From Leucoraja erinacea (lineage: Eukaryota): DNA of 64,000 bases. The first letter of the stretch is position 1; each line of letters opens with the position of its first letter. A program made the translations under genes and the position numbers. Where the stretch lies: assembly GCF_028641065.1 (NCBI RefSeq), contig NC_073392.1, positions 23,684,001 through 23,748,000 of the forward strand, in the 5' to 3' direction. The notes under the pieces were generated by a model that saw only the letters and a list, made by a program, of their open reading frames with translations, had not been told where the DNA came from and searched no databases. Below are positions 3,801 to 63,930 of the stretch, piece by piece.

Positions 3801-6800
3801 GATTAAGATGTATGGTATTCATGAAGACTTGGTCGTAAGGACTCAGAAACTGGCTTATTCATAGAAGGGTTGTAGTGGAAGGTAGCTATTCTGCCGGAGG
3901 TGTGTGACTAATGGACTTCAAGGATCTGTGCTGGGATCTCTGTTGTTTGTGATATTTATAGAGATGACATAGACATAAATGCGGATGGGTTGGCGAGTAT
4001 GTAGACGACACCAAAATTGGAGGAGTTGCAGACAGTGGGGTATACTGTCAGTGAGGAACTGATACAATGAGGGAGGGGAGCAGTGAGGGAGGGGAGCAGA
4101 GGAAGGATTTGACCTGAAGTGATGTAAGTCAGCTGGGCTGTCAGGTCTCAAGATATAAAGGCGTAAGGTCACGTCCCTATATTCCTATGTGGCTGTGGCT
4201 AGAGTTAACACGGTCCCATACCCCACAAAAAATCATTCTCACACCTGTCTCGCACAGCAAAGTCCTTCTGCTGTTCCAGAGAATGTACAAACGTGATGAG
4301 GAAGTGTTTGTTGCTCAGCAGCATGGAGAACAAGGCAATGCCCTCCTCCATGTTGTGCCGAGAGTTTTCAGGGACCTGAAACAAAGAGGGAGAGCAAGTG
4401 AGTGAGGACTCTGCTCCAAGTCTCCCACACTCCAGTGGGGCACAATGCCTGTATCTGGACAAGTCGCCACAATCCCCCTCCACCCCACAGCCAGGATGTG
4501 CGTTCCGCTCCTGTAAACTGACTGCCCCCCCACAGATTGGCTACCCGCTCACAGGACAAACACAGACCCAGCACACATGTAGACGGTCGTCTGTGCTCTC
4601 CGTCCCCTACAGCCAGATCTCCCACACCCCCACAAGAGGGTCTCAGACCTCTAGAGCTGAGAGTTATGATTCCTGACCAGACCCCCACAAGTACTCAGAC
4701 CAGAAACTGCCAGGAAAGGTTTTGAATACACAACTGCATCTATCTCAGCCCCACAAAACAGCAGACTCATTGGTCCTATCCCAGTGCATTCCCCAGTTGT
4801 GGCTTACCTTCCACTCAAGCTGCAGCAGTGGGTGGGTCTCTGGTCGGTTGCTGGAGATGGTAGCCTCTCTGGACTGGGCATTCAGCTGATGGAAACACTC
4901 GGGGCTTCTGCTTTCACAATCAATTGAACACTGGAATGAAGGATTGGGTTTGGTGAGTCCTGAAATTCCTTTAGGTAACCTGTCTCTCCTGCACGCCATA
5001 TTTCACAGGAACCAAGGGGTGGATTGTTCCAATCCGTCCTCCTGACCCGAGATGTTGGCTGTCCATTCCTTCCACATGTCCTGTCTGACCCATTGAGTTC
5101 CCCCAGCACTGTGATCTTTGCTCAAGATTCATGCATTCAAGCAGTCTCTTGTATCTCTGTTCTCACCCACCACTTACTCTGATTGCTTTCAATTTGTTCT
5201 TAACAATTTATGCCACCCATCGAAATATGGTCTACCAGATCATATAATATTAAAAACATTACCACACATTACCCTAAAACAACTACAACCATTATACCTG
5301 TTATAAATTCGACATCTCCCAGATAAAATAAATCTTGCCAATCATTTGGGAAAAGTGAAAGGGGAAGAGGAGGCAGGTGGAGTGAGGGGGGAAGCTGGCT
5401 ACAGGTTGGAAAGGGTATGTAAGGGTAAGTGAGGGGAAGGGGAGAGACAGAAGGAGGGAAGAGAGAGAATGGGGATATTCAAGGTGGAGTGTGAAAGGGG
5501 GGAGTAGAGAGAGTGGAGGTCCTAGAAATTGGACCACCTATGAATGACATGTTAAACAGGTGCTGCACATGGTGCTAGCTCACAACGCAGTGACAACCCC
5601 CAGCCCTAATAATTGTGAAATTGGTGGGAGAAAGCAGAGTGGCAATGAACACAAATTGACTCACTTTTGGGAAAAAGGTGCGAATGACGAAGTACTTGTA
5701 CTCGAGGAAGGGAATACCCTGGCTCCGGTTTAGCTCCTTGGTGAGGTCAGTCATATCAGTCTGCAACTCAGCAAAACCTGCAGCATAAGAGAAGGGGGGT
5801 AAGTACCTGCCTCTCAACAAAGAGAAACACGTACATCTATGTAGCACCACTTAATATTCCCAGCTTATTGTAGCCAACAGTTGTCTGTATTCTCTGCTCA
5901 TCTCGCAGCCCACCCAACTTCGATTCCCCCTTTTTTCATGCTCATTCCTCTCATTTTGTCCCCTTCCTCCCTTGTCCCTCCCTTTGGCTTTACATTTTTC
6001 TCGTATTCCTTCCTTACCTAACTCTCTTTTGTTTCCTTTACACCTCCAGCTTTGTCACTATCTGCATCCAAGTGCTAATCACCCCCCTTGCCTATATCCA
6101 CCTATCACTTGCCAGACTATCCCCCAACCCCCATCTCTCTTTTCCAGCTTTCTCGCCCTTATTCTATCAGTTAGAACAAGGGTCCTGAGCCAAAACATTG
6201 TCTGCCAATTTCCCTCCAGAGGCTGTCTGAAGAAGCCTGATATGCTGAGTTTCTCCAGCTTTTTTGTATAACCTCCCTCCAGAGGCAGCCTGATATGCTG
6301 AGTTCTAACCCACCACATTACTTGAGGACTACATTTAAGGCAGATTACCATATTGGACCGTATCCTAATTTGCTTCTGTCCATTATTGAAGAGAGAGAAC
6401 TTTGAAGGTGTGCTTTTGACTATGTTGTACTGTTGGACATGCCCACTGGGCTTAACACTATGATTGAAGTTTACTGTTGTGGTTGTCCCATCTAGAAGAG
6501 GTATTGTACATGTATTTTGTTGTCCAGTAAATGGGACCTCTGGTCTGCTCATCCCCAATGGCCGGCAAAGCTCGTACCTTTCCGAATCTCCTCCCTGATT
6601 TGAGCCTCCATCTCTTCCATCTGAATCAGAGTCTTCTGCCAATATCGCTCAGCTCGACGGCTCTTTGTACAGAAGATGACCAAGGCTAGAAAACACAGAA
6701 TAGTTACAAAATGGAGACTATTTACCCGCAGAATCCACATTGGCTCTGCGATCCAGCTGGACTAGCTCCCCTGCCCTCCCCTGCCCACAAAGAGGAGAGT

Positions 6801-9800
6801 TGGATATACAAAAGACATTCCCACCAGTCATGAACAGTTAGTTCAGGTTAGAACACTGGATCATCCCCGGGAAAGAGGGAGCAAGGTGGGAACGCAGGAA
6901 GCCATTCAGCCTGTGAACCAGAATGCAGGAAATAGAGTGAGAAGGGAGGGGGCATGTGTGAGTAAAGGAGGAGGGTAAGTGGGAGTGTAAGAGAGGTGGG
7001 AGTGTGGGGAAAGTGGGAAGTGGGGGGGGGGGGGGGGGGGGGAGAGGAAAGATGGGAGTGAAGAAGGTGAGAGTGAGGGAGAAGTAGGGACAGAGAGGGG
7101 AAGGGGTGGCAGTGAGGAAGGAGGGAGTGAGGAGCAAAGGGAGGTGGGAGTTAAGGAAGAGGGGGAGACAGGAGTGAAGAATGAGAGGAAGTGGGAGCGG
7201 AGAAGGAAGAGATGTTAAAATGAGGTGCAAGGAGTAAGAATGGGAACGCGGGCGTGAGGAGGGATGGGGAAGTGGGAGGGAGATGGGAGTGAGGTAGGAG
7301 GGAGCTGGGAGTGAGGTAGGAGGAAGAGGTGTGAGTGAACGGGGAGGGGGATGTGAATGTGAGAAAACACAACAATAACACAACAAGGAGTTTCTTCCCA
7401 GAGGCAATTCGGACTGTAAACGCCTATCTCACCAGGGACTAACGCTACAGAACGTTTTTCCTTCTATTATTTATTATGTAAAGGAATATGTGTGTTATGA
7501 TTGTGTTTATAATTTGTTTGGTTGTTTTGTTGTTTGTCTTTTGCACAAAAGTCCGCGAGCATTGCCACTTCTTTCATTCCACTGCACATCTCGTATGTGT
7601 ATGTGACAAATAAACTTGACTTGGCTTGACTTGACTTGACTATCTGGACATCTGATATTTGCTTCAGTGCTCCAGTCCTGGAACATTAGTTGCTTCTCTC
7701 TGCAGATGCTGCTCACCCTGCTGTGTTTCCAGTAATATTTACCAACCAGAGGGGTGAATTTCTTACCAATGCCACAAGCCAGCAGCAACAACAGGCAGAC
7801 CACGATCGATATCACGACTGAAGTCGTACTCTCTCCCAGTTGTACCATCGCAATCGTCTCATTGTAATTTCCCACTTGCACCTACAGCAGAGCGCACAAG
7901 AGGGGAAGGTCATGTGAGCAAGGAGGACAAGTGGGAGAGGAAGCTGCTCTTCAGGTCCCTGTGCATAGATTTACCCTATCTATCCCCCTCATGATCTTTT
8001 TTTTTTTTAATGTTTATTTTATTAGATGCAATTGTACAAGAAGAAAGAAATCGACATAACAATTATACAATTTTTATATGACTTCAGTTTTAACATTTTA
8101 TAAACTGATAAGTGAATCGTAAAAAAGTAAAAAGGAAAGAATGAAGAGGAAGAAGAAAGATACGAAAAAGAAAGAAGAAAAAAACCCTGAAAAAGAAATG
8201 AAAGAAAAAAAAAAAGCAGATATGTCCCACTATCCTTCCCTACACACCCGCTCCCCCAACCCGAGCATCAGTTTCGAATTTGTGTTCAACCATTCTGTTG
8301 TTGAACAAATTCAATGAAAGGAGACCATATTTTGGAAAATTGGTCTGATTTCTCAGCCAAAACAAGCCTTATTTTTTCTAAATGTAGTGTCTTGGTCATT
8401 TCTGTGATCCACATCTTCACTGTGGGACTGTTATCTTTTTCCAGAATTTAAGTATAGTTTTTTTCACACCCTCATGATCTTCTACACCTCTTTAAGATCA
8501 CCCCTCATCCTCCTGCACTACAAGGAATAAAATCCTAGCCTGCTCAAACTCTCCCTGTAGCTCAGGCCCTATGTTCTTCAGAGATGTTGCCTAACCTGCT
8601 GAGTTACTTTCTTTCTATTTAAACAATAAGATTTATGCAAATGTTGCTATTGTCCAGTTTCTCTTGTTTGCCATGAACCCAAGCCCTGTGCTGAGTGAGC
8701 AGCAACGTATTCACTTCCATCAACTCTCCCAGTGCTCCACTGTGCAGTGTCTGTTCCCCGTGACAGCCCACAGTCCAGCAGTCACCTCATGCCTGAAGAC
8801 TTGCACCAAGTGAGGGTGATGAGGCTAGGAGAGGTGGGAGTGTGGAGGAAGTGGGAGGTGGGAGGAGGTGGTTCAAACACGGTCGCTCTAACTTTCTCTT
8901 GCTTACCGTGACAGGCAACTGCTGTTCATTAGAATCGATCGACACATTCATGGTGCAGTGAATCTTTCTCTTAACAACGTAGATGTCACAAGGAAAAGGG
9001 CCAATCGTCACTTTGTATTCCTCAGGAGCCAAGTTCAAGTTGTCTGGTATCTTCTGTGAAAGGAGAAAGTTAGCAATGAAAGATGTGGGGAAATAGTCAT
9101 TGGCCAGATGCAGTTATGAATCAGGGAGAAGAGAGTGATGGGGCAGAGAGCAGAATGCAGAGAGAGCAAGGCAGACATGAGATGATGTGTAGCCTTTCTC
9201 CTCCCTCTGTTTGTCAATGAGGGAGGAGAGAAAGGGCAGATATCTGAAGAAGGGTCTCAACCCAAAATGTCACCTATACCTTTTCTCCAGAAATGCTGTC
9301 TGACCCGCTGAGTTACTCCAACTATTTGTGTCTTAGATTTCTTGTCTAACTCTATGATCAGAGACAATACCTCATCTGATTCTCCCCTCTCTCAGGCAGG
9401 TTTCCAGGGCAATTATCAGGAGGAGGAACCCTGGATAATACTTCTCTCTTGCTCAATGCTATCATGCCAGTTGGTTGGGAGCAGGGATCCTGCCTGTCTG
9501 TCTTCCTAGACAATGATAAAACACAGCAGGACGATTCAGGATTCATTGATCAGAAAGAGAAGGTGGTTGCACAGGAGACACAAAAGCCAGAATCTGGCTC
9601 AAAAAACAAATTGTTGGAGGAAACGCTCAGCAGATCGGGCAGCATCTGTGGAGGCAAATAGATAGTCAACATTTTGGGTGAGAGCATGCCTGAGAATGTA
9701 GAAGGGAGAGAGCTAGGATAAAGAGGATAGATAGGTGATGTGTGGAACAGTGAAGGGGTGGAGATGGGCAAATGGAGCCAGGGGGAGGAGGGGAGAGTTT

Positions 9801-12800: not shown

Positions 12801-15800
12801 CATGTACCTGTCCAAGTGTCTTTTAAATGCTCTTATAGTACCTATCACAACTACCTCCTCAGGCAGCTCATTCCATATACGTCACACCATCCGAGTGAAA
12901 AAGTTGCCCATCAGCCTCATTAAATCTTTCCCCTTTCACCTACTGTATGTCTCCTGGTTCTTGATTTCCCTACCCTGAGTAAAACAATCTCTGCATTCAC
13001 CCTGTCTAATTCCCTCATCATTTTATAAACCTCAATAAGATCACCCCTCAAGCTCCTGAGCTTCAAGGAATAAAGTCCTAGCCAACCTTTCCCTATAGCT
13101 CATGCTCCGGAGTCCTGACAATATCTCGCAAATCTTCACTGCACTCTTTCAACCTCTCGTAGGGCGACCTAAACTGAACACAATACCCCAAATGCAGACT
13201 CACCAATGTCTTGTGAACTGTAACATACATCCCAACTTCTATTGTTACTACCCTAACTGATGAAGGCCTTTGTACTTGTGATACCAATAGCTTATTCGGA
13301 TTCTCTCTCTCTAATGGCCCTCTCCCCCTTTACCCATTGACTGGATGACCTCTGCAAAATTATCCTCACCACAACCCTAGCCACACCCTGACACGATATT
13401 ACCTTTGTTCTCCCCACATTCATTGCAATTTGAAGCCAACTTGTTTTCTCTCTTTCTCATTTCCGAAGAAGGATATCTGATGTGATAAGTTCTATTTCTC
13501 GTTCCAAATATGTTACCTGACCGGCTAAGTTTTTGACTTTCATATTAAATATGGAGATATCCATCATCATGCAGAGTGAAAAAGGGTCTCGACCCGAAAT
13601 GCCGCTTATCCGTGTTCTCCAGAGATGCTAGACACAACATGGTAGAGTAACTCAGCAGGACAGGCAGCATCTCTGGAGAGAAAGATTGGGTGACGTTTCG
13701 GGTCGAGACCCTTCTTCAGACTGATGTCAGGAGAGAGGGAGATACATAGATAAGGAAGTGTAAGGTGTGGAAACAGGACAGAGGGAATGGAGATCAAGGA
13801 CAAAGAATAAATCATTCTATGATCATCCAGAGATGCTGCCTGTCCCGCTGAGTTACTCCAGCATTTTATGTCTATGTACAGTTTAAACCAGCATCTGCAG
13901 TTCCTTCCTACACATTTCTCCATAGATGCTGCCTGACCTGCTGACTTACTTCAGCACTTTGTGTCTTCTTAAAAAAACCCATCTGCAGTTCCTGGTTTCT
14001 ACTGTTTATGAAAAAATTCCATCTTACCTGATGTAGCTGGTGTATGGGCTGATACTTTCTATCAATGGGTTCTCTCGATACTTGTAGGTCATGGTATTGT
14101 TGGTGCATTCTCCATTCTCAAACTGGACACAGATGGAAATGCTTCCCTCAGCTACATGCATGGCCGGCATTACACAGACAATGGCACTCTGGTTCCGTCT
14201 ATGAAAAGGAAAGCTTGCATTTATATAACATGGCCGGCAGTGCAGCGAGCCCAAGAGTAGACACGGCAATCATTTCAGCAAATACTTTTATGCCAAGGCC
14301 TGTTGGATCTCCTCGTTGCTATCTATTTGAACCCATCTTCCCATTCTCATACTGACCTTTCTGCCTTGAGCCACCTCCATTGCCAGAGGGAGACCACATA
14401 CAAACCAGAGGAACAACACCGCATATTCCACTTGGGTTCCTTAATGGTGTGAATATTAAATTCTCCAATTTTCAGTAACTACATAACCTTCCACCTTTCC
14501 CATCTTCCTCCATAACCTCCCCACCTGGACTTGCATCTATTTCTCTCCACCCCCTACCCTTCCACCTGTATTCATTCCTCTAGCTTCACAATTCACAACT
14601 CTACAATCTTTTTGTCTCACACCTTCTGCCTCTTCATCGCTGGCCTTTGTCTAATCATCTGCCAATCAAATAACCTCCTCACCTGTGAAGGGCTTTTACC
14701 TGCCAGGCTTTGTTCTGCCCATCCTCTCTTCCAGCTTTGTTCTCCCCCTCCCGACCCAAAACTTCGCCCGTCCACATTCTCCTGAGATACTACCTGAACC
14801 ACTGAGCTAATTCAGCACTCTATGTCTTCTTTTGCAATTATATAACATCTCTCATGGAATCATTACACCACAAAGCACTTTACAGCCAATGATGTACCTC
14901 TGAAGTGTAGTTCCTATAGAAAGCATGGCAACCAACATGTGGCCAAAATCCTCAAATTATTCACTGAGGAAATGTTTTAATTAATTCATTTATTTAATCT
15001 TCATGATTTGGGCATTGCTGGGAAAACCAATGTGACCTGAGTGATCATTCCAGAGGATGCTGGTAGGTCTGAAGTCATGTGCAGGTGAGACAGATTAAGA
15101 AAAACAGATATCTTCCCTAGATGGGCATCAGTGAACCAAATCACCTTTTTACATAGTTTTGTAGTTTTGTGGTTCATTTTTACTCATTTAAAGAATGTTT
15201 TTGAATTCCACAGCAATTATGGTGGGATATAAACCAGTCTCTATTGTTAGATTCAGATTCAGATTAGTTTATTGTCATTTATATCAGGTTAAAATGAAAT
15301 TCTTTATTCACATGAACCTCATATAGTACATGGGATACATAATAAATGCAATGATGAATGCAAAACAGCAGAATGGTGTAGTGGAATCCGAAGTAGTCTG
15401 GAACTTAGGGCTTTCAAACTCTTGTATCTTCTCCCAGAAGGTAGAAAAGAGAAGTGGGAACAGAGAGGGTGATGGGCATCTTTGATATTACTTCTAGCCT
15501 TCCCGATACAACACACCAAGAAGATGAACTGAAGGGAGGTGACAAGCCTATGGTGAACAGGGCAGTTCAGGAACTGGGCAGTTCAGGAACATCTGCAGGT
15601 TCGGTTGGTGAGGTGGGGAGGAGGAGAGAAGACCCTAGTTGGTGGAGGGATGGGGAGAAGATCTTTGTGAGGATGGTCCAGGTAGCCTCTAAGATGTGGC
15701 CTTTCTGGTGGGTGGTGAGGGCCAATGTAGCTGAGGGAGTAAGTGTTTTGCTGAGGTTGCAGTTAAGGAGAACTGGAGAGGATGCACTGACTAAATTTAA

Positions 15801-36800: not shown

Positions 36801-39800
36801 AAATCAGTCCAGGTCTGGATTTAACCAAAGACAGGCATAAAATGCTGGAGTAACTCAGTGAGCCTGGCAGTTTCTTTGGAGAAAAGGAATAGGTGACTTT
36901 TTGGGATGAAACCTGAAGAAGGGTATTGACCAAAAACATCACCTGTTCCTTTTTTCTAGAGATGCTGTCAGATACGCAGAGTTACTCCAGCATTTTGTGT
37001 CTATCTTTGGTGTAAACCTGCATCTGCAGTTCCTTCCTACACATGTCTGGGTTTATTTTATTTTATTTTTTTAGTTTAGAGATAGAGCATGGAAATAGGC
37101 CCTTCGGCCCACTGTGTCCATGCTGACCAGCGATCACCTGTACACTAGTTCTATCCTAAACACTAGGGACAATTTTCAGTAGCCAATTAACCTACAATCA
37201 TAGGGAGAACACACAAACTCCGTACAGGCAGCACCTGTAGTCAGGATCGAAGCCAGTTCTCTGGCTGGCAACTCTACCACTACGCCACTGTATCCTGGAT
37301 ATTGGGGGAAGGTACTTAATTAGGACAAGGCAGATTACAATGTCATTAGGCAGAAGCTACGGAGGGTAGATTGGAAGCAGTTGTTATGGGATAAGTCCAC
37401 AGATGATATGTGGGAGGCGTTTAAAGTTGAGCTGATCAAAGTGTAGGATCAGCATGTTCCAGTAAGGAGGATGGATAAGAACAGCAAGGTAAGGGAACCG
37501 TGGATCACCAAGGAGATTGTAAACTTGGTGGAAGAAAAAGGAAGTTTGTCAGGTTTAAGAAGGTCATTTCGGATGGGGCTTATGAGGAATATAAAACTAT
37601 AAAGCGAGCAGGAAAGTACTCGTAGGCGATTAGAAGGGTCAAAAGGGGCCAAGAAATGTCATTGGCTAGTCAGATTAAAAAAAATCCTAAGGCTTTTTAT
37701 ACGTATGTTATAAATAACATACGTATAAAATCCATATCGAGGAGGACCTGACGTGGAGCGTGAACACCACTGCGCTGCTGAAAAAGGTCCAGCAGAGACT
37801 GCACTTCCTGAGGGTGCTCAGGAAGAATAACATCACTCAGAGACTGCTGCTGTCCTTTTATCGGTGCTCCATTGAGAGCATACTAACATACTGTGTATGC
37901 GTGTGGTACACCAGCTGCACAGCGGCTCAGAGGAAAGCGCTCCAGAGGGCCATTGACAATGCCCAGAGGATTGTCGGCTGCCCTCTCCTTACCTTGGAGG
38001 ACTTATACAGTTCCCACTGCACCAAAAAATCCCAGAATATCATAAAGGACATTTCCCACCCCGGACACTCCCTGTTTGAACTGTTGCCGTCAGGCAGACG
38101 GTACAGATCTACGAGGACAAGGACAAATAGACTAAAAAACAGTTTTTACCCCACTGCTATAAAAGCACTAAATGTAGCCGCCAAGGAACGCAGGGGCGAT
38201 ACAGACTAAGGGACTGTGGTAACTGTGGAATCGACAGAAGGATGGAGGGTTGGGTGTGTATGCGTGCTTTGTCCGTGATATTTATTTAGTTGTTTATCTT
38301 TAATATTTTACCTTGTATGTATCGTTAGCTTTTAGAAATGTTTGAATGCTGCACTGACTGGCTGACATTTTAAATTTCGTTGTACATGGTTCATGTTACA
38401 ATGACAATAAAGAAACTATTCTATTCTATTCTATTCTAAATAAGAGGATACCAGGGAGAAGGTAGGACTGCTCAAGGATAAATGAGGATGTAGGTGAGGT
38501 ACTAAAGGAATACTTTGCATCTGTATCCACTGAGGAAAAGGACTTGTGGAGAATACAAATATGTTCGGGCAGTTTGAGATCGAGAAGGAGGTGGTGCCAT
38601 GGCTCTTAAAGAGTGTTAAGGTGGATAAGTCCCCAGGGCCAGATGGGATCTATCCCAGGTGATGGTGCTGAAGTTTCTGCAATTGCCTGTTCAATGAATA
38701 ACGTGTAGTTTGTAAGGATAGATTAGGCCTGTGAGATGAGAACAGCTCTTACCCAGGACCAGAAGCGGGGAAAGCCCAATCATTTACTCAGGGCACAAAA
38801 CATAAGGTGCTGGAGGAACTTAGCGGATCAGGCAGCATTTATGGATCGAATGGATAGATGACGTTTCAGGTTGCGACCCTTCTTCACACTGATTGTAGTA
38901 GTGGAAAGGAAGCGGACAATAGGTGGGACAAAACCTGCCATTTTCTTTGGATACATGTAAGGGGGATTTGATTGGCAAATGGGTGACAAAGGTGAGAGAT
39001 GTAAAGGAAATAAAGAATGTCAGGGAAGGAGAGAGGATAAATGAAATGTTGAGGCAGAAGGAGGGATATAGGTGGAAGGCGATTGTGGGGAAGGGGGGCA
39101 GAATAGTTGGATAAAGGGGGCACACGAGAGCTGGGGGGCACAAGAAAGAGAGATGGTGAATAGAGGGGTGTTACTTAAAATTGGAGAATTCAATGTTCAT
39201 ACCATAGGCTTGTAAGTTACCCAAGTGGAATATGAGATGTTGTTTCACCAGTTTGCATGTAACCTCACTCTGACAACGGACGACAGAAAGGTCAGGATGG
39301 GAATGGGAAGGAGATTTAAAACAATTTCCTCACAGGCTGGCAAAGGACTGCTTGCTATTTAACAACATGTACAGAAGTGTATCCCATTGCATCAGCAACA
39401 TTGACCTGGCCAGTGAACACCAGCTAGCAAATAGTAACAGTGGCCGGCCTGTTTCTTTGCTAGTAATAAATGCCGGTATGGCCATCAATAACAACAATAT
39501 CTGCAGTTGAGGGTGTAGTGTATGTTATGGTTCCGTCCTCTTTTAGCAACGTTCCAATAATTTAAACACTGAAGTCAGATTACCATGGCAAAGATAGGCT
39601 TTGAAAGTTCACAGACCTGGTGCATGGTCATCACGTAGAGATAGTTCTGGTCCTCCGGGTCAAAATGCATGATGTGATGGACAGCCTCATCCGATGCCAC
39701 GAGAAGAACCTCTCTCTTCAAAATCTGGTTATTCTGCAAGTTCAGCTGGAAGAGTAGGGCCAGATCATCAGACAGGTGCTGAACCTCCAACCACTGCCAC

Positions 39801-42800: not shown

Positions 42801-45800
42801 TTTCAAACTAGGGCAGGTCTTGCACAGTAAATAGTGGACCCTGGAAAGTGTTGCAGAACAGGGAGATCTGGAAGAACAGGCGCATGATTCCCTGAAAGCG
42901 GCAAATCAGGTGGACATTGACCCACATGTCCATAGTCCTACAATACAACAGGATATATCCTGGTTACATTTCATCAGGAGAAACATGAACATTCCTAGCA
43001 CCATACATTAGGAAGGAGAGGCTTCTGTACGATTTATGAGAATAATGTCTCAACCCAAGGTAAATTGCAATGAGAAATTATACAAAGATGGGGTTCTATT
43101 TTTTTTCACTTGTATACTCTGACCCGAGTATATTGGGGGTGACACTGAACAGGTTAAAGTGTTTAGGTAAAGATTGAAACAACCCAAAAAATTGCCTATT
43201 CATATCCTCCAGAGATGCTGCCTGAGCCGCTGAGCTACTCCAGCACTTTGTGTCTTAATTGAATCAAATTTTTCAAAATATTTATGTACCACTGAAAGGG
43301 GAAACGGAAAGGAAATACCTGTACATCGACCAGCAGAGGAGTTGCCGATCCCTTTCACCCATGGTGAGTCCCCTTATTGAACCATTGCAATCTTTTAGCT
43401 AAAGGAACTCCCACTGTTATTGGGGAGGGAATTGCAGGATTTAGACATGTATTTCTAAACAAGAATAGTGTGCAATTTGAAGGGTAGTAGTGCTGTGGTG
43501 CTGCCTTTATCAGGATACAAAACGGGCCTTTATGACTCACCTAGAAGAAAGTCGTCAACACAATCATTACAAATGGGTTACATAGGCAATGTTAGCAACA
43601 CTTGAGAAATGATAGGAAATATGACTTACTTCCAATCCTGTCCATTGTCCTTGTTGGTAGGGGCTTGGATTTGGGAGATTTTATCAGAGTTGGACGTAGG
43701 ACATTACCCTGAGGAACATCTGTAGGTTCCCACCCGGCCACCTTCCTTTGTGTGAGGCATGACCACTCATTGCAGTGTTTCCCCCATCATGCCACTTGAC
43801 ATGAGTTTTACCAGCGTGCCTTAATGCCATACACAGTCAAATGATACCTTGATGTGAGGTAATTCAGCCTCACATCACCTCTGCTATTCAATTCTTGGGT
43901 TCAGGGTGGAGGAACAGTGAGGGGGCCAGAGGGTGAAGTGAGGCAGAGAAGAGAGGGAATAAGCGAGTTCGGTATTCCGGCTGCGGGGAGAGAGAGGAAG
44001 AGGGGTGATCTGGAGATGCGGAAAAAATAAGAAAATGAAAATGAGACAAGAGGGGTGATGGTGTAGGGAGGGGGAAGGGGAGGGCATGGGTAAGGGGGAA
44101 TGGAAGAGATTGGGTAAAGGAGAAGGGGAGGGCGGAGTTGAGGGGAAAGGGAAGGTTTGGGCCTGCAAGAGTGAAGGGGTGATGCTAAGAGCATGAGAGG
44201 TTGAGGACATAATCTTCCGAGCCAGACTATCAAAAGGAACCGTGAAATCCATGTAGACCCATCTACTGTCCTATTATTTGATACTACCTCAAAACATTCA
44301 ATCAAATATGAGAGACAGGACCTATCCTGCATAAAGCCATGCTGCCTATCCCTAATAAGTCCTTGCTTTTCCAAATGCAAGTAAATCTTGTGAAACTTCC
44401 CCAATAATTACACTACCACTCATTCGAAGGTTCTCCGGCTTGTAAATTCCTCATTTTTTCCCTGTTTTCTGTCTTAAACAAAATAACAACATTGGCAAAA
44501 AACAATTTGCTGGATGAATTCAGAGGGTAAGGCAGCATTTGTGAAGTGAAATGAACAGAAAACATTTGGGTCAGGAACTTTCTTTGAGACCAAGAATGGT
44601 CCCAACTCGAAAGGCCATCTGTCTATTTCTCTCCACAGATGCTGCGTGACCCATTGACTGCCTCCACCAGTTTGTATTTGCTCACAATCCCAACGTCTGC
44701 AGTTTTTATGGTCTCCGAACAATACTGGCTATTCTCCAATTCTCTGAGACTTCCACCATGGCTATAGATGTCATAGTCATTGTTTCCCTTGCTACCCTCA
44801 GTATCCTGGGATAGGTCCCATCAGACCTTGGATATTTAGTCACCGTAATATTTTTGAGATTACTACTTCCTCCTTAACATCAACATTCTCTGGAATATCA
44901 ATATATCCCTATCATCCACGTTCTTCCCAATGCAAGATACAAGATACTCATTAAGGACCTCATCCATTTCCTGTGACTCCATGTATAAATTCCCTCTTTT
45001 TTCCTTGAGTCGACCTATCCTACCCCAAACTATCCGTTTGCTTCTAATATATGTATAAAATGCCTTGGAATTTTCCTAATCTTTCTTGCCAAGGATATTC
45101 CATGGAATTTTTTTGTCTTTCTTGTTTTTCTTTCCTGCTTCCTTTATATTCCTCAAGGATCTTGTCTGATTTCAGTTTCCTAAATTTTATATTATACTTC
45201 CTTTTCCTCTTTGACAACTTACAATGTCTCTCGTCGTCCGAGGTTCACAAATCCTGCCATCCTTATCTTAAAGGAACATGTTAGACTTGAACTCTAACTA
45301 GCCGGCCTTTGAAGGACTCCTACATGACAGGTGTGGACTTTCTTCCAAACAGCCACTCCCAATCTACGCTCCCCACAGCTGTATTCCATCTGTGTAGAGC
45401 CATTCCTGTGCCTTCTCCGGAGGCGGTTGGCAGGCCTGGCTTTACCGGGGCCAGGGGTGGAGGTGGTTCTCTCAGCCTACGCCGATGATGTCATTCTGAT
45501 GTTCACCGACCCTGTTGACCTGCGGAGGAGTGCCAGCAGGTTTTCTCGGCTGCATCCTCTGGCAGGATCAACTGGGGGAAGTGTTCTGGTCTCTTGGTGG
45601 GTTAGTGGGAGGTGGACTCCCTGCCGGAGGAGATGACAGCTTAAGCGTGGAGCACCACGCACCTCCTCTACCTGGGGGTCTACCCGAGTCCCACTGAGGG
45701 GGCTTGGCTGGTGAACTGGCAGGAGCCGGAGGCGAAAGTCATCACCCGGCTAGGGTGTTGGTCAGGCCTCCTTGGCGTGCTCTCTTACCAGGGGAGTAAA

Positions 45801-48800
45801 CCAGCTGGTGGCCTCTATGTTGGGGTACTGGCCGCCCACTCTGGTCCCACCCTCTTTATTTGTCACCATGATCCAAAGGAGGTTGGTGAACATCTTCTGG
45901 GGAATCATTGGGTCTCTGCTGGGGTTCTGTGTCTCCAGTTGGAGGAGGGCGGTCAGTTGCTGGTTTGCGTCCGTACCCAGGTGGCGGACCCTGCGGAGGT
46001 ATATGTATTCCGAGAGTCCTCCTAAATGGCACGCGCTGGCGACGTACTTTTTCCGCCAGGGTCGCTGCTTCCAGGAGGGCACACAGCTCCCGCTAGCGGG
46101 TACGAGTCGACACGCTAGGCGGGAGTTGCCTGGCTTTTATCGAGATATACTTAAAGCCAGGAATCTGGCCACCTTCCGCTGACCAATCTTAATCTTATCA
46201 GATCTATCTGCAAATTTATGGAATTATGTAACCTGTTGCTGCAAATGCTCTCCCACTGAAACATTGACCATGTGACCAGGCTCATTTCCCAATACAAGAT
46301 CTAATATGGACTAATTCCTAATTGCATTATCGAAATATTGTTTCAAACAATCCTCCTATATGTAACTAACAAATCTGCCCTTCAGAGCCCCTGGCACTGA
46401 GAGTGTAAATAATGGAGAAATTAAGATCACCCACCACAAAAATTCTGATGTTGAGACACCTTTTCGTGATCAATCTTCACATTTGTACATCAAGCTGTAC
46501 ATCTGTATATCTTTTAACTGGCACACGTAAACATGAGCACATTTCGCACATTTTAGCCTCACTCCACTGGTTGCCTATTCAGTTTAGGATCCATTTTAAA
46601 ATTATTTTATTTGCTTTTAAATCCCTAAATGGTCTTGCCCCGCCCTACCTATCTGAGCTTCTACACCCTTATACACCTGCCCGCTCTCTCAGGTCAGATA
46701 ATCAGCTGCTCCTGAGTGGGCCTAAAACTAAGCAGAAGCTCAGAGGGGACCGTGCCTTTGCTGTGCCGGCACCCAAATTATGGAACAATCTGCCTCTCCA
46801 CATTAAACAGGCCTCTCCTCTGTCTGTTTTTAAATCACTTCTTAAAACCTATCTCTTCTCCGTGGCCTTTGATACCCAGTAAGATGTCGACTTTATTTAC
46901 TTGATTTAATTTCTTATTTTGATTGCTTTATTGCGTGGTTATTATTTTTACTCATGTTTTATGTCTTTTAATTTATTGTTCTATTTCATATGTAATGTTT
47001 GCACTTTATGTGAGCTGTTATGTTGTCTGTTTATGATGTCTTGTTTATTCTTCTGTACAGCACTTTGGTCAACATTGGTTGTCTTAAAGTGCTTAATAAA
47101 TAAAGTTGGATTGGACCACCATAGTGATTGCACTGTTCTTATTTATGAGTTCCAGCCACATGGTTACAATGGATGAGCCCTCCAGGATCTCCTCACAGTC
47201 ATGACATTCTCCCTGATTAGTAATGTAACTCCCCCACCTATTTTACATCCTTCTCCGTCATGACCTGGGTGTCATGGTACACCAGTCATTGAAAGTAGGC
47301 ATGCAGGTGCAGCAGGCAGTGAAGAAAGCGAATGGTATGTTAGCTTTCATAGCAAAAGGATTTGAGTATAGGAGCAGGGAGGTTCTACTGCAGTTGTACA
47401 GGGTCTTGGTGAGACCACACCTGGAGTATTGCGTACAGTTTTGGTCTCCAAATCTGAGGAAGGACATTATTGCCATAGAAGGAGTGCAGAGAAGGTTCAC
47501 CAGACTGATTCCTGGGATGTCAGGACTGTCTTATGAAGAAAGACTGGATAGACTTGGTTTATACTCTCTAGAATTTAGGAGATTGAGAGGGGATCTTATA
47601 GAAACTTACAAAATTCTTAAGGGGTTGGACAGGCTAGATGCAGGAAGATTGCTCCCGATGTTGGGGAAGTCCAGGACAAGGGGTCACAGCTTAGGGATAA
47701 GGGGGAAATCCTTTAAAACCGAGATGAGAAGAACTTTTTTCACACAGAGAGTGGCGAGTCTCTGGAACACTCTGCCGCAGAGGGTAGTCAAGGCCAGTTC
47801 ATTGGCTCTATTTAAGAGGGAGTTAGGTATGGCCCTTGTGGCTAAGGGGATCAGAGGGTATGGAGAGAAGGCAGGTACGAGATACTGAGTTGGATGATCA
47901 GCCATGATCATATTGAATGGCGGTGCAGGCTCGAAGGGCCAAATGGCCTACTCCTGCACCTAATTTCTATGTTTCTATGTCTGAAATATCCATACCACGG
48001 AACAATGAGCTGCAAGTCCTGTCCTTCTCAACTAAGTTTCTGTAATGGCTACAATGTCAGAGTTCTCTGTATTAATTCATCTTCTTTACCCAGTATACTG
48101 TCAGAGCACTCTCATGCCCGAGAATGCATCCTGCATCTACGGGTGGCACCAGTGCATCAGTAAATGCTGATAGCCATGCCAATGGTACTTGCCTTCCCTT
48201 TGCAGGTAGAAACATTGAAATGCCGATGCCGGTTTACAAAAAAAGAGACACAAAGTGCTAGAGTAATTCAACAGGTCAGGCAGCATCCCTGGAAAACATG
48301 GATAGGTGACGTTTTAGGTCAGGACCCTTCTCCAGTCTGAACAAAGGTCCCGACCTGAAATGTCACCTGCAGGTGAGTGAGACAACGGGAAATGTCTCAA
48401 TCAGTGATATATTCCGACTCTGCTACACACTGATTCCATACCCAGGCCCAGAACCTGCCTTCAGTTTCATGAGCAACTTCAGGTCTCAGTGCTGTTCCAA
48501 ACCCCCAATGCACTCACTGTGATGTTGCGTTGGATGCAGGCTGGTCCACTTCCTTGAATCACGCTGTCCAGGACGGTCACCTCCTGGCTGTGCTTCTCCT
48601 TGAAGCACTGGCGTCGGGCGCTCCTCATGCTGTGGTCGATGTCGCTGAAGTTGAAGACGCAGAGGGCGGAGCGCTGCTCGCTGTCCTCGGGCCCCTGGAA
48701 CAGGCCGTACAGCCGGTGTCCCGGGCCTGGCCACACGGAGAGCAGGCGGCCGAAGAGGGTGGGATCGGCGAAGCAACGTAAGCCCAGCTGGATGTAGGAC

Positions 48801-50400: not shown

Positions 50401-51629
50401 GGTTTCGTGACCGTGCCCCGCTGCCTCCGCCTGCTGTCTCCCTGACGATGTTCCCTCTTCCAACAACCCTACAGGAAGTCTGTTTCCTGTCAATCCTTCC
50501 TCGGCAAGAGCTCCGTCACAGCTTCGAGCACCTCACAGCATCGCCCGCAGCCCGAAGACCCCGGACCGAGGCAGGAAACACAGCGGTGATGCTCCCTCGC
50601 TCCCTTACCCTCAGATGAAGCTCCCTGTCTACACTCCTCGCCAGCGAAGCTCCCACGCTCTATTCCCCGCCGGCGAATCTCCCTTACTTCATTCCCCTCC
50701 AGTGAAGTTTCCTCATTCCACTAACAGATGAAACTTCACATACTGCCCACTATCCTCTATTGAAACTCCCTCACTGCCCACTACCCACTACCCTCCAGTG
50801 AAGCTTCCTCAACAATTTATAGTCTATGTTTACAACGTGGATAAAGCGACTGAAATTATTGTAGCCAAATCGATTAACGATATCAAGGAAATTGATTAGC
50901 AAGTAGTGATGAAGATACAAGGAGCTTGCAGAGGGATATTGACAGGTTAAATGAATGGGCAATAAATTGGCAGATGGGGTATAATGTGGCAAACATAAAG
51001 CTGTCCTATCTGCTGAGATCTTTCAGCATTTTCTGCTATTTTGAATGAAATAACAAATTAAAATGGAGTGATACGACAAATATTGTGGTACAAAGGGACC
51101 TGGGGATCCTTTGTATTCTGAAAGGCATGGATAGGGTAGATAGCTAGTGCCTGTTTTCAATTGTAGGAGTATCTAAAGTAAGAGGGCATAGTTTTAATGT
51201 GAGAGGGAGGAGGTTTAACAGGGATCTGAGTAGTAATTTTTGCACACATTCTAGTTGGTATCTGGATGAGCTGCTGGGTCAGGAATAGTAACAACATTTA
51301 AGAGGTTTCTGGACAAGTACTTGAATGAGGATGGTAAAGAGGGATATGGAAGTAATGCAGGCAAGTGGGATTTGGCAGAGTTAGGCAGAGAATCACAGAG
51401 GCAAACTGAACAGAAATAGACCTATAGGTCCAACTTGTCTAAACTGACCAAGAAGCCCAATCTAAGTAATCCTAGCCTGCCCAACCTTTCCTTGTAACTC
51501 AGGCCCTCAAGTACTGGCAACATCCTCATAAATCTTCTCTGCACTCTTTCCAGCTTAATGACATATTTCCTATAGCGTAGTGATAGGGCAATGCGATCTT
51601 GCACATATCATCCCAAGTTCTATGTGTAA

Positions 51630-51845
51630 GAAGGAACTGCAGATGCTGGTTTAAACTGAAGATAGACACAAAAAGCTGGCGTAACATCAGCAAGACAGGC
51701 AGGATCTCTAGAGAGAAGGAATGTGACGTTTCGGGTCTTGACCCGAAACGTCTAAATAAGGGTCTGGACCTGAAACGTCGCCCATTCCTTCTCTCCAGAG
51801 ATGCTGCTTGTCCCGCTGAATTACTCCAGCTTTTTGTGTCTATCC
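51630..51845. mobile_element. Palindromic (inverted-pair) Penelope-derived short element
   Basis: Arms GATAGACACAAAAAGCTGG / CCAGCTTTTTGTGTCTATC; internal hairpin at 51725-51752. Confidence 0.75.
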
Positions 51846-52129
51846 CAACTTCTGTATTCATTTCCCCGACCGATGAGGGCCAGCATGTCAAAAGCCTTCT
51901 TCACCACTGTATCTGCCTACAATCCCACTTTCAAGGAGCTATATGTTTGTACATTCCCATAGGGTCTTACAGCGTGGAAACAGGCCCTTTGGCTCAACCT
52001 GCCCGCACCGGCCAACATGTCTCATCTCAACTAGTCTCTCCTGCCTGCATTTAGCCCATATCCCTCTAAACCTGTCCTATTCATGTACTTGCCTAAATGT
52101 TTATTAAATGTTGCAATGGTAAAACTATG

Positions 52130-60320: not shown

Positions 60321-60724
60321 TACAGAGAACAGCAGCGATCAACCCTCAGCAGCCTCCCCGTTCTCATTTTGCCACAGTGCTCTGGAAACCTGGCAAAAAA
60401 TCCAGCACCAGAAATCTTATGGCTTGGCTTCCCTGCACCACGATTGAATATTATCCAAAAAACAAATAACCAAGTATAGAGACAAAGAACTGCATATGCT
60501 GGTTAACACACAAAAGGACACAAAGTGCTGGAGTAACTCAGCAGATCAGGCAGTATCTCTGGAGAACATGGATAGATGACAATCAACCTTTCCTCTCCAT
60601 GTATCTGTCCAGATGTCTTTTAAACATTGTGATAGTACCTGTACCTGCCTCACCAAGGTCCTTTGGCAGTTTTTTCCATATGCCCACTACATTTTGTGTA
60701 AAATGGTGGTGATTTGAGTTAATA

Positions 60725-61095
60725 TACGTCGAGTGTTTGAAGGCACTGGGCCTGTATTCGCTGGAGTTTAAAAGTATGAATGGCGACCTCATTGAAACCT
60801 ACTGGATAGTGAAAAGCCTGGATAGAGTGAATGTGGAGAGGATGTTTCCACTAGTGGGAGAGTTTAGGACCAGAGGCCATAGCCTCAGCATAAAAGGATG
60901 TACCATTAGAAAGGAGATGAGAAGGAATTTATTTAGTGAGGGTGTTGAATCTGTGGAATTTATTACCGCGGACGGCTGTGGAGGCCAAATCAATGGATAT
61001 ATTTAAGGCGTGTTAATAAGCGTGTCAGGAGTTATGGGGCGAAGGCAGGAGAATGGGGTTGAGAGGGATAGATCAGCCATGATTGAATGGCAGAA
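60725..61095 (+). mobile_element. CR1 LINE 3' fragment
   Basis: [10 protein letters not shown]...GDLIETY. Confidence 0.85.
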
Positions 61096-61409
61096 TAAAC
61101 TTGATTCTGCTCCTAGAACTAATGAAGTTTCCCCTCAGGTTCCTATTAAATCTTTTCCCCCTCACCAATTTTCCTGTGTTTTTTGATTCCCCAACTCTGG
61201 GTAAATGACTCAGTGCATTTACCATAAATATTCCACTCATGATCTTATACACCTCTATACTATTACCCCTCATCCTCCTGTGCTCCAAGGAATAAAGTCC
61301 TAGCCTGCTAAGCCTCTCCCAATGCTCAGACCCTCGAGTCCTGCCAACATCATCATAAATCCTCTGCACCCTTTCCAGTTTAAGAATATCAAGTGTTCAA
61401 TGAAACAGT

Positions 61410-62180: not shown

Positions 62181-62799
62181 AGAGGTGGATGAGAGTCTCG
62201 TTTTTTTTTTTTTCTCTCTGTCTTGGTACAGTTGCATTGGTGATGGCAGGTAAGTTGGTACAATGTCCCTCCTCCAGGATGTGGGAAGTCAGGGAAACTG
62301 CTGGTGTCCCTGAAGACTACACCTGTGGGAACTGAATCCAGGTGGAGGCTCCTTAAAGACCGTGTTAGTGAACTGCTTCTACAGCTGGATGAGCTCAGGA
62401 TACGGCCCACGTATAGTGAGGTTGTCATGCCCAAGGACCAGGAAGAGAGAGTGTGGGTGACAATGTGGAAGGGAAATAGACATGGAGTGCAGATTACCCC
62501 AATGGCTATACCTCTTCATAAACATCATTTTGGGTGCTATCAGGGGGAAGACATATCAAGGTTGAGCAGCAGTACCACATAGGGCTATGGCACTGAGCCT
62601 GGCATGGAGGCTCAGCAGGGAAATGCGACAGGCAGTCATAGTGGAATCCAATCAATTCAGATAATAATATGTATAAATGCCATCAAGCCAAAATAAAGTA
62701 CAATAAGTAAAATGAAGATAAAGATACCAGAGTGGAGATTGTAGATCTCATTATAGCATAATCATCCCAGAGAAAATGTTCAATGTCCATAATGATCTC

Positions 62800-63930
62800 A
62801 TTCCTAAACGACGATCATCCAGTGGCCTTGACACCCACCATCATGAAATGTTTTGACAGGCTAGTTATGGAACGCATTAAATCTAGTAGTCTACCATGCG
62901 GCCTTGACCCACAGCAGTTCACCTTCCGCCACAATCGGTCCACAGACTATGCCATCACCCTAGTCCTACACTTATTCAAGGATAAGAGAGTCGCTCACAT
63001 CAGACTCCTATTCATAAACTACAGCTCTGCCTTTAACACCATTATACCATCCAAGCTTATCACCAAACTCACGGTGCTTGGAGTCAGCACTCATCGCTGC
63101 AACTGGATCCTCGACTTCCTGGCCAACAGACCCCAATCAGTGAGGATAGGGGACAAATCATCCTCTATGATGATTCTCAACACTGGTGCTCCTCGAGGAT
63201 GCGTTCTCAGCCCCTTTCTTTACTCCTTGTTCACCCACGAATGTACAGCCATGTACAAATCTAATTCAATTTTTAAATATGCAGACGACACCACCATTTT
63301 GGGGCCAGATATCAAATAATGATGAGACGGAGTACAGGAAGGAGATTGAGAACCTCATGTCCTGGTGTCGAGACAACAACCTTTCTCTCAATGTCAGCAA
63401 CACAAAGGAGATAGGGTTGGACTTCAGGAAGTGAAGTTTGCATTGACAGTGCCGTAGTGGAGATGGTTGAAAACTTCAAATTATTAGGAGTCACTATCAC
63501 CAACAACTTCTCTTGGACCACCCATATTGAAGCAATGACCAAGAAAGCACACCCTTAGAAGGCTTAGGAAGTTCGGCATGTCCCCAACAACTCTCACCAA
63601 CTTCTACAGATGCACCATAGAACGCATTTTATCAGGATGCATCACAGCTTGGTTTTGGAACAGCTCCATCCAAGACCGCAAGAAATTGCAGCGAATTGTG
63701 GACGCAGGCCAGCCCATCACACAAACTAACCCCCCTTCCATTGACTCCATTGATGCCTCACGCAGCCTCGGTAAGGCCAGCAGCATAATCGACTAATCAC
63801 ACCCTGGCTACTCCTCTTCGCCCCTCTCCCATCGGGCAAAAGGTATAGAAGTGTGAAAACACACACCTCTAGATTCAGGAACAGTTTCTTCCCAGCTGTT
63901 ATCGGGCAACCAAATCATCCTACCACAACT
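62800..63930 (+). mobile_element. Rex1/Babar-like LINE RT region, frameshifted
   Basis: [62 protein letters not shown]. Confidence 0.9.

What the first reader, a model, noticed from the sequence alone, without database searches (positions are those of the whole stretch)
13688..13723. Hammerhead-ribozyme-like motif in a dispersed Penelope-derived element, sense to the plxnd1 pre-mRNA
Seen: the minus strand reads CUGAAGA-A-GGGU(CUCG)ACCC-GAAA-CG-UC. That is both hammerhead core boxes (CUGANGA and GAAA), a stem II hairpin, a palindromic ACGU in place of stem III, and a GUC triplet. The motif recurs at least a dozen times in varying states of decay (e.g. near 9244, 26028, 28730, 28974, 29258, 30760, 31994, 33710, 36913, 38860, 48310, 51725, 57637), and Penelope RT/GIY-YIG fragments lie in the same window. 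Known: Penelope-like elements carry minimal type I hammerheads thought to work as dimers. Inference: this is a highly amplified, non-autonomous ribozyme-bearing (retrozyme-like) family. This copy sits in intron 16 in transcript orientation. Its stem I is only about 2 bp, so activity is uncertain.
Basis: partly seen in the sequence, partly recalled or inferred. Interest (0 to 1): 0.7.

Follow-up and report, generated by a model that had tools for sequence, protein, structure and literature searches.

The report
Penelope hammerhead relic in plexin intron
The motif is a known miniature self-cutting-RNA sequence from the end of a Penelope-like jumping gene that fills this skate genome, and this copy in a plexin D1 intron is likely an inert passenger that does not cut the host RNA.

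Summary
The motif is real: 13719-13692 (- strand), in intron 16 of plxnd1 and sense to it. It has 15,042 exact copies genome-wide (control 0).

It is the minimal type I hammerhead of the end repeat (pLTR) of a Neptune-type Penelope-like element, not a retrozyme. It follows the GIY-YIG ORF in 29 of 30 protein-selected copies. Copies span the cut site (536 of 658) and end about 66 or 101 nt beyond it, the known PLE 'tail', so they were likely copied from uncut RNA.

This copy is a 5'-truncated insertion nested in an older antisense copy, whose remnant is predicted to pair with the whole core.

In 1.4 Mb of introns there is no strand bias: 324 sense vs 334 antisense, and 67 vs 69 with an intact core. 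The catalytic G12 is altered in 30% of copies, as at neighbouring CpG sites. So there is no sign that host pre-mRNA is cut.

Open lead: short copies start at a conserved Initiator-like TCAGT just before the core. The scan has already reported this family in many other windows of this genome.

The parts
13688..13723 (-). Minimal type I hammerhead: C3 at 13719, stem II 13711-13708/13703-13700, GAAA 13699-13696, palindromic ACGU, predicted cut between 13692 and 13691, 2-bp stem I
13630..13825 (-). 5'-truncated forward copy of the PLE 3' end (196 bp): about 105 nt of pLTR/3'UTR, the hammerhead, and the short end about 60-66 nt past the cut site
   Evidence: the same upstream sequence follows a GIY-YIG ORF end in L112 (same place as L102) and L177
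13826..13915 (+). Inverted PLE end piece with the long 'tail', head-to-head with the forward copy; likely part of the same insertion
   Evidence: same subtype as the forward copy, 43 of 48 bases alike
13575..13629 (+). Head half of an older antisense copy with a decayed hammerhead; predicted to pair with the focal hammerhead in the pre-mRNA
13916..13996 (+). Likely tail half of the same older antisense copy
13615..13629 (-). Right copy of the likely 15-bp target-site duplication
   Evidence: 14 of 15 identical to 13930-13916
13916..13930 (-). Left copy of the likely 15-bp target-site duplication (alternative: an exact 12-bp repeat at 13837-13826)
14030..14200 (-). plxnd1 coding exon 16 (approximate ends), upstream of the insertion
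   Evidence: tblastn with skate plexin-D1 P0001

Best explanation
The motif is the minimal hammerhead in the end repeat of a Neptune-type Penelope-like retrotransposon, and this copy is a 5'-truncated insertion nested in an older antisense copy that likely does not cut the plxnd1 pre-mRNA. Shown: it is linked to the GIY-YIG ORF, copies run through the cut site and end at two points, copies decay at CpG sites in the core, and introns show no strand bias. Inferred: the element's RT started internally about 66 or 101 nt past the cut site on uncut RNA and stopped early, as shown in vitro for the anole PLE. Also inferred: in the parent element the hammerhead works, if at all, as a weak dimeric or protein-assisted ribozyme. 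Predicted: in the pre-mRNA this copy has no stem III as a monomer, has no intact sense partner in the gene, and is paired with the antisense remnant about 90-140 nt downstream.
For: 29 of 30 loci chosen by the GIY-YIG protein carry the motif 82-116 nt after the stop codon. L122 has a 5' pLTR hammerhead, an ATG 136 nt past the cut site, and a second hammerhead 3,726 nt on. A younger subfamily with long open RT-EN frames carries a one-sided variant with 17,430 exact copies. 536 of 658 pieces span the cut site, 4 end at it and 13 start at it; 3' ends peak at +66-72 and +100-102, matching the 30-40 nt tail and internal RT starts in PMC11167929. Sense vs antisense: 324 vs 334 overall (CI 45-53% sense), 67 vs 69 with intact core, 23 vs 25 with the full fold; core substitutions 143/1905 vs 146/1841; G12 altered in 100 of 338. 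Stem II probability is 0.51 alone, 0.04 with the tail, and 0.00 with the downstream antisense piece; forcing the hammerhead fold costs 11-34 kcal/mol in context. Only 1 of 8 sense pieces in the gene has the full fold. No pile-up of read ends at the cut site.
Against: Within plxnd1 itself the pieces are 8 sense vs 19 antisense (p about 0.05 by hand), a hint of depletion that the 1.4 Mb sample did not repeat. The first 1 Mb alone leaned the same way without significance: 225 vs 253 overall, intact core 42 vs 55. Non-CpG core positions vary slightly less than tail positions (5.7% vs 7.8%), though the search favours copies with a matching core. The sampled genes are giant CUB and laminin-G genes whose strand was inferred from exon clusters, and they may be weakly transcribed. 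Folding is at equilibrium, whereas in transcription the core is free briefly before the antisense piece appears. The RNA runs had no reads on exon 16, and fragmented libraries cannot show ribozyme ends.
Confidence: 0.88

Rival explanations
1. The short copies are an independent non-autonomous retrozyme family that self-cleaves, circularises and is reinserted by the PLE enzyme.
For: 159 of 343 hammerhead-covering copies have unique flank right before the motif (an upper bound), and 28 of those 159 have direct repeats of 8 bp or more vs 3 of 159 in a control. Family sequence is abundant in RNA, about 0.16-0.54% of reads. 10.64898/2026.07.22.740005 derives retrozymes from pLTRs.
Against: Ends do not fall at the cut site. 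Copies are dispersed: 4 intact same-direction pairs within 500 bp among 307. Head-to-head pairs (107) far exceed tail-to-tail pairs (19), as for PLE insertions. The hammerhead is the minimal PLE type, and the same sequences sit on ORF-bearing elements.
Confidence: 0.06
2. This intact sense copy cleaves plxnd1 pre-mRNA in cis or in trans with another copy and affects host expression.
For: It is the only sense piece in the gene with a complete minimal fold, and sense pieces in plxnd1 are fewer than antisense, 8 vs 19.
Against: No strand bias and no strand-specific core decay in 1.4 Mb. The core is predicted to be sequestered by the antisense remnant. The intact 28-mer is simply the commonest haplotype. 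Single minimal hammerheads showed no cleavage in PMC4209133, and the anole one needed the element's protein (PMC11167929).
Confidence: 0.04
3. The motif is kept in the parent element as a promoter, RT or endonuclease signal and no longer cleaves at all.
For: Copies come from uncut RNA. Hammerhead mutants did not affect insertion in vitro for the anole PLE (PMC11167929). The young subfamily is not predicted to form stem II in its leader. No two-sided covariation was seen.
Against: Both master haplotypes keep all catalytic bases, the ACGU palindrome and an allowed NUH triplet, and their differences keep pairing (U-A to U-G at two pairs). Related PLE hammerheads cleave in vitro (PMC4209133, PMC11167929). 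This rival concerns the parent element and is compatible with the best explanation for this locus.
Confidence: 0.25

Closest known systems
Minimal type I hammerheads (min-HHR) in pLTRs of metazoan PLEs (Cervera and De la Pena 2014, PMC4209133; read parts 1-2 of 4, results to methods)
   Same: Both core boxes, an extra base between 9 and 10.1, a G10.1-C11.1 pair, palindromic 15.2-16.2, no stem III, position in the pLTR, and mostly single truncated copies.
   Different: Stem I is only 2 bp (4-5 bp in the schistosome families; 2 bp in D. virilis). Copy number is far higher: over 32,000 exact copies of two haplotypes vs about 4,000-9,000 in coelacanth and Xenopus. Cartilaginous fish are not mentioned in the parts read.
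Poseidon element of Anolis carolinensis, PAc (Frangieh et al. 2024, PMC11167929; read parts 1-2 of 4)
   Same: Two 3' ends defining a tail downstream of the hammerhead; uncut RNA as template; no read ends at the cut site.
   Different: In PAc the ORF starts at stem II. Here the ATG is 136 nt past the cut site and both ends lie in the 5' UTR. This element is Neptune-type.
EN+ PLE insertion units, Neptune clade (PMC8557442 and PMC3846280; passages read)
   Same: 5' truncation, partial tandem forming the pLTR, an inverted 5' copy with the tail at one end, target-site duplication, a CX4CxxC linker before the GIY-YIG domain, and a nested insertion in opposite orientation as for Pen2a_Av.
   Different: Here up to about half of the copies are 95-135 nt stubs starting at the hammerhead, at about one piece per 2.1 kb.
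Metazoan non-LTR retrozymes (PMC7229834, passages; 10.64898/2026.07.22.740005, parts 1-3 of 5)
   Same: Type I hammerhead, small size, relation to PLE pLTRs.
   Different: Retrozymes are tandem repeats of about 170-400 nt that yield circular RNA, with canonical hammerheads in PMC7229834. These copies are dispersed, minimal and not bounded by the cut site.

Membership tests
PLE minimal type I hammerhead | CUGANGA and GAAA boxes, NUH triplet, stem II with G10.1-C11.1, extra base after A9 | tested here: met
PLE minimal type I hammerhead | Palindromic 15.2-16.2, no monomeric stem III | tested here: met
   ACGU in both master haplotypes
PLE minimal type I hammerhead | Located in the pLTR of an RT/GIY-YIG element | tested here: met
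   29 of 30; both pLTRs in L122
PLE minimal type I hammerhead | Compensatory covariation in stems | tested here: inconclusive
   only one-sided U-A to U-G changes between two masters; no second family in the sample
PLE minimal type I hammerhead | Self-cleavage as dimer or with protein | not testable with these tools
   needs a bench assay
EN+ Penelope-like element, Neptune type | Single RT plus C-terminal GIY-YIG ORF | tested here: met
   open frames of 750-960 aa with YIDD/YVDD; Pfam RVT_1 E 1e-4 and GIY-YIG E 0.04, both below the curated cut-off
EN+ Penelope-like element, Neptune type | CX2-5CxxC linker before the endonuclease | tested here: met
   CX4CxxC read in L122 and L062 translations; criterion from PMC8557442; this motif does not separate Neptune from Nematis
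EN+ Penelope-like element, Neptune type | Placement in the Neptune clade by RT phylogeny | not tested
   no reference set fetched
EN+ Penelope-like element, Neptune type | Partial tandem, inverted 5' copy, 30-40 nt tail, target-site duplication | tested here: met
Non-LTR retrozyme | Head-to-tail tandem units, each with an intact hammerhead | tested here: not met
   focal copy is single; 4 intact pairs among 307; genome-wide count not obtained
Non-LTR retrozyme | Units bounded by the cleavage site | tested here: not met
   536 of 658 span it, 4 end and 13 start at it
Non-LTR retrozyme | Circular RNA | not testable with these tools
   short-read lays only

The most novel reading that the evidence does not exclude
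The element's mRNA starts at an Initiator-like TCAGT that overlaps stem I, so the hammerhead is the first 30-35 nt of the capped RNA, which would explain the 2-bp stem I. The hundreds of thousands of 95-135 nt stubs are then complete cDNA copies of that leader, from two internal RT start sites. The ribozyme acts only in the element's dimeric RNP, as a switch that removes the cap or trims read-through RNA. This genome would then be a huge natural record of the PLE copying cycle.
Probability: 0.3. Interest if true: 0.6.

Novelty: new member of a known kind. Interest (0 to 1): 0.25.

Why it matters
The locus itself is ordinary. The family gives two useful things. First, a direct test, negative here, of whether tens of thousands of intact minimal hammerheads in vertebrate introns cut host pre-mRNA; the flat strand ratio supports the view that these ribozymes need a partner or the element's protein. 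Second, the sharp 5' and 3' ends of very many copies make the open question of how Penelope elements start, prime and use their hammerhead testable.

Tried and rejected
- Rfam: no hammerhead match at E<=10.
- RNA holders: none listed for the stretch; this is not evidence either way.
- RNA reads on 13400-14300 came from many family copies and none covered exon 16, so they say nothing on this locus.
- My early idea that the ORF starts inside the tail was wrong: the ATG is at +136.
- An apparent antisense excess in the first 1 Mb vanished at 1.4 Mb.
- Self-targeting as a rule: only 7 split elements among 658 pieces, with the family covering 4.6% of the sample, so nesting here is compatible with chance.
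- Which older half pairs with the head at 13575-13629: a top-15 best-match test favoured the 13826-13915 piece (14 of 15), but it appears dominated by shared hammerhead identity. Diagnostic bases (3 vs 0, and 5 vs 1) and a rank correlation of 0.42 favoured 13916-13996. Both readings are nested insertions.
- No other hammerhead family was found in 1.06 Mb.
- A genome-wide count of tandem pairs was not obtained; the sample was used instead.
- One search had a one-column offset; its feature counts were discarded and redone.
- Paper searches showed no study of this skate family, but I saw only their listings. No supplements were read, and those of PMC4209133 and the 2026 preprint (which sampled one chondrichthyan) may list it.

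Full report
Observation. C3 is at 13719 and the predicted cut lies between 13692 and 13691. Exon 1 of the window's gene is 95% identical to thorny skate plexin-D1, so the genome is a skate's. tblastn with that protein places the motif between exons at 14200-14030 and 11858-11766 on the minus strand; this is intron 16 when one undetected exon is counted. All 13 listed extra sites exist. A profile finds 34 pieces in the window; 17 cover the hammerhead and 2 of these have the complete minimal fold. The exact 28-mer occurs 15,042 times in G000 and its reversed control 0 times. Rfam does not recognise it.

What it belongs to. Of 30 loci taken by the exact motif, two shared about 950 bp upstream, which is the 3' end of an ORF with a GIY-YIG-like C-terminus. 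Taking loci by that protein instead, 29 of 30 have the motif 82-116 nt after the stop. The one without it runs into unrelated sequence near the ORF end. Searching with a more N-terminal part gave many copies with open frames of 750-960 codons. Their hammerhead is a variant with loop UUCG, a closing U-G pair and a GUU triplet, with 17,430 exact copies. L122 is a full-length unit: a truncated ORF end plus pLTR, the hammerhead, an ATG 136 nt past the cut site, and a second hammerhead 3,726 nt later. Its frame from that ATG stops after 348 codons, with the RT-EN part in another frame. A CX4CxxC linker precedes the endonuclease, the Neptune/Nematis mark in PMC8557442 (passages). The focal copy's upstream 105 nt belong to a subfamily with a longer 3' UTR that also joins a GIY-YIG end (L112, which covers the same place as L102, and L177).

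How copies were made. I sampled 140 stretches of 10 kb inside giant genes whose strand was inferred from CUB and laminin-G exon clusters. The profile finds 658 pieces, one per 2.1 kb; this would be roughly a million genome-wide if the sample is typical. 536 of 658 span the cut site, 4 end within 3 nt of it and 13 start just after it. Among 345 copies covering the hammerhead, 3' ends peak at +66-72 and +100-102. This is the 30-40 nt tail that PMC11167929 (parts 1-2 read) traced to two internal RT start sites on uncut RNA. Of 343 copies classified by upstream context, 159 have unique flank, 102 shared pLTR and 82 an inverted copy. In 32 of 305 anchored copies with an exact direct repeat of 8 bp or more (control 22 of 909), 24 have their 5' boundary 0-6 nt before C3. 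TCAGTCT precedes and includes C3-U4 in 47 of 50 ORF-linked copies. It fits the Initiator consensus, which I recall and did not take from a call; PMC3846280 (passages) notes an Initiator-like site in a rotifer pLTR.

The locus. A forward 5'-truncated copy (13825-13630) is joined head-to-head to an inverted piece with the long tail (13826-13915). On either side lie two antisense pieces (13916-13996 and 13575-13629) whose model positions overlap, flanked by a 15-bp repeat with one mismatch. Diagnostic bases link these outer pieces to one subtype and the inner two to another, on small counts. The likely history is one classic inverted-plus-forward PLE unit inserted into an older antisense stub. 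An alternative with an exact 12-bp repeat also makes the focal copy a nested insertion. Such splits are rare, 7 among 658 pieces, and compatible with chance.

Can it cut? Alone, stem II forms with probability 0.51 and stem I with 0.03. With its tail stem II falls to 0.04. With the downstream antisense remnant the whole core is paired and stem II is 0.00; forcing the fold costs 11.5-33.8 kcal/mol depending on the span. Two free copies prefer an extended duplex (-21.1 kcal/mol) to the palindrome-joined form (-12.7, stems I not included). No other sense copy in the gene has the full fold. If intronic copies cut host RNA, intact sense copies should be scarce. They are not: 324 sense vs 334 antisense overall, 67 of 175 vs 69 of 170 with an intact core, and 23 vs 25 with the full fold. 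Core substitutions are 143 of 1905 vs 146 of 1841, and G12 is altered in 50 of 173 vs 50 of 165. G12 lies in a CpG and is altered in 100 of 338 copies, against 98 of 336, 63 of 339 and 61 of 325 at three other CpG guanines. Against this reading, plxnd1 itself has 8 sense vs 19 antisense pieces, and the first 1 Mb leaned antisense without significance. The confidence interval for intact cores (41-58% sense) leaves room for a weak effect. The two master haplotypes differ only by one-sided changes that keep pairing, so covariation is not shown.

RNA. Six raw RNA runs carrying a related or the same species label were laid on the locus or on L122 (four runs each). Family reads are 0.16-0.54% of reads and fall on both strands; none covers exon 16. 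No pile-up of ends appears at the cut site, but fragmented libraries are insensitive to such ends. On L122 the N-terminal ORF has low, strand-biased coverage in X15 and X13. This fits sense transcription of full-length elements if the first mate is antisense, which I could not calibrate.

Comparison and verdict. It works like, and meets the testable criteria of, the PLE minimal hammerheads of PMC4209133 (parts 1-2 read), where single motifs did not cleave and dimers did so weakly. It fails the tandem and boundary criteria of retrozymes (PMC7229834 passages; 10.64898/2026.07.22.740005 parts 1-3). Earlier notes of this scan reported the same family many times in this genome. I took the 'complete leader copy' idea from one of them and tested it only partly. 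Verdict: a new member of a known kind; the focal copy is likely inert; interest 0.25.

Noticed in passing
window 13837-13826 and 13629-13618: The inner end of the inverted piece stops at the same 12 bases as the target-site duplication in the older host copy, which may point to homology-guided priming when the element inserts into its own kind.
   Followed up: partly
window 36815-37044, 44505-44707, 48216-48365, 51621-51854: Head-to-head pairs joined in or near the hammerhead; 107 head-to-head vs 19 tail-to-tail pairs in the 1.4 Mb sample.
   Followed up: partly
G000:C18:26567500-26576500 (L115): Two near-identical long copies of the young element, head-to-head, each with an open frame of about 800 codons.
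   Followed up: no
L122 (G000:C11:2268000-2274000): Structurally full-length element with a long proline-rich, repeat-containing stretch between the N-terminal domain and the RT; low strand-biased RNA coverage over the N-terminal ORF.
   Followed up: partly
L229:9259-9710: Tandem run of about seven 66-bp units of the element end starting at the GAAA box; other short tandem runs in L194, L179 and L197.
   Followed up: no
L122:5406-5449 in RNA reads: Many read joints that go back 31-34 nt across the hammerhead; these may be short tandem duplications or mis-split palindromic junctions.
   Followed up: no
window 14315-14443 and 14752-14834 (+): Antisense PLE endonuclease fragment and end piece in intron 15, close to exon 16.
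   Followed up: no
run X6 on window 13650-13900 and L122: Single-cell reads over the family are 2-4 times more abundant on one strand relative to the element; library chemistry is unknown, so the direction is unresolved.
   Followed up: no
window 45300-46200, 47229-47885, 60713-61396, 62762-63900: Fragments that look by translation like other retroelements' RT or 3' ends; not identified further.
   Followed up: no
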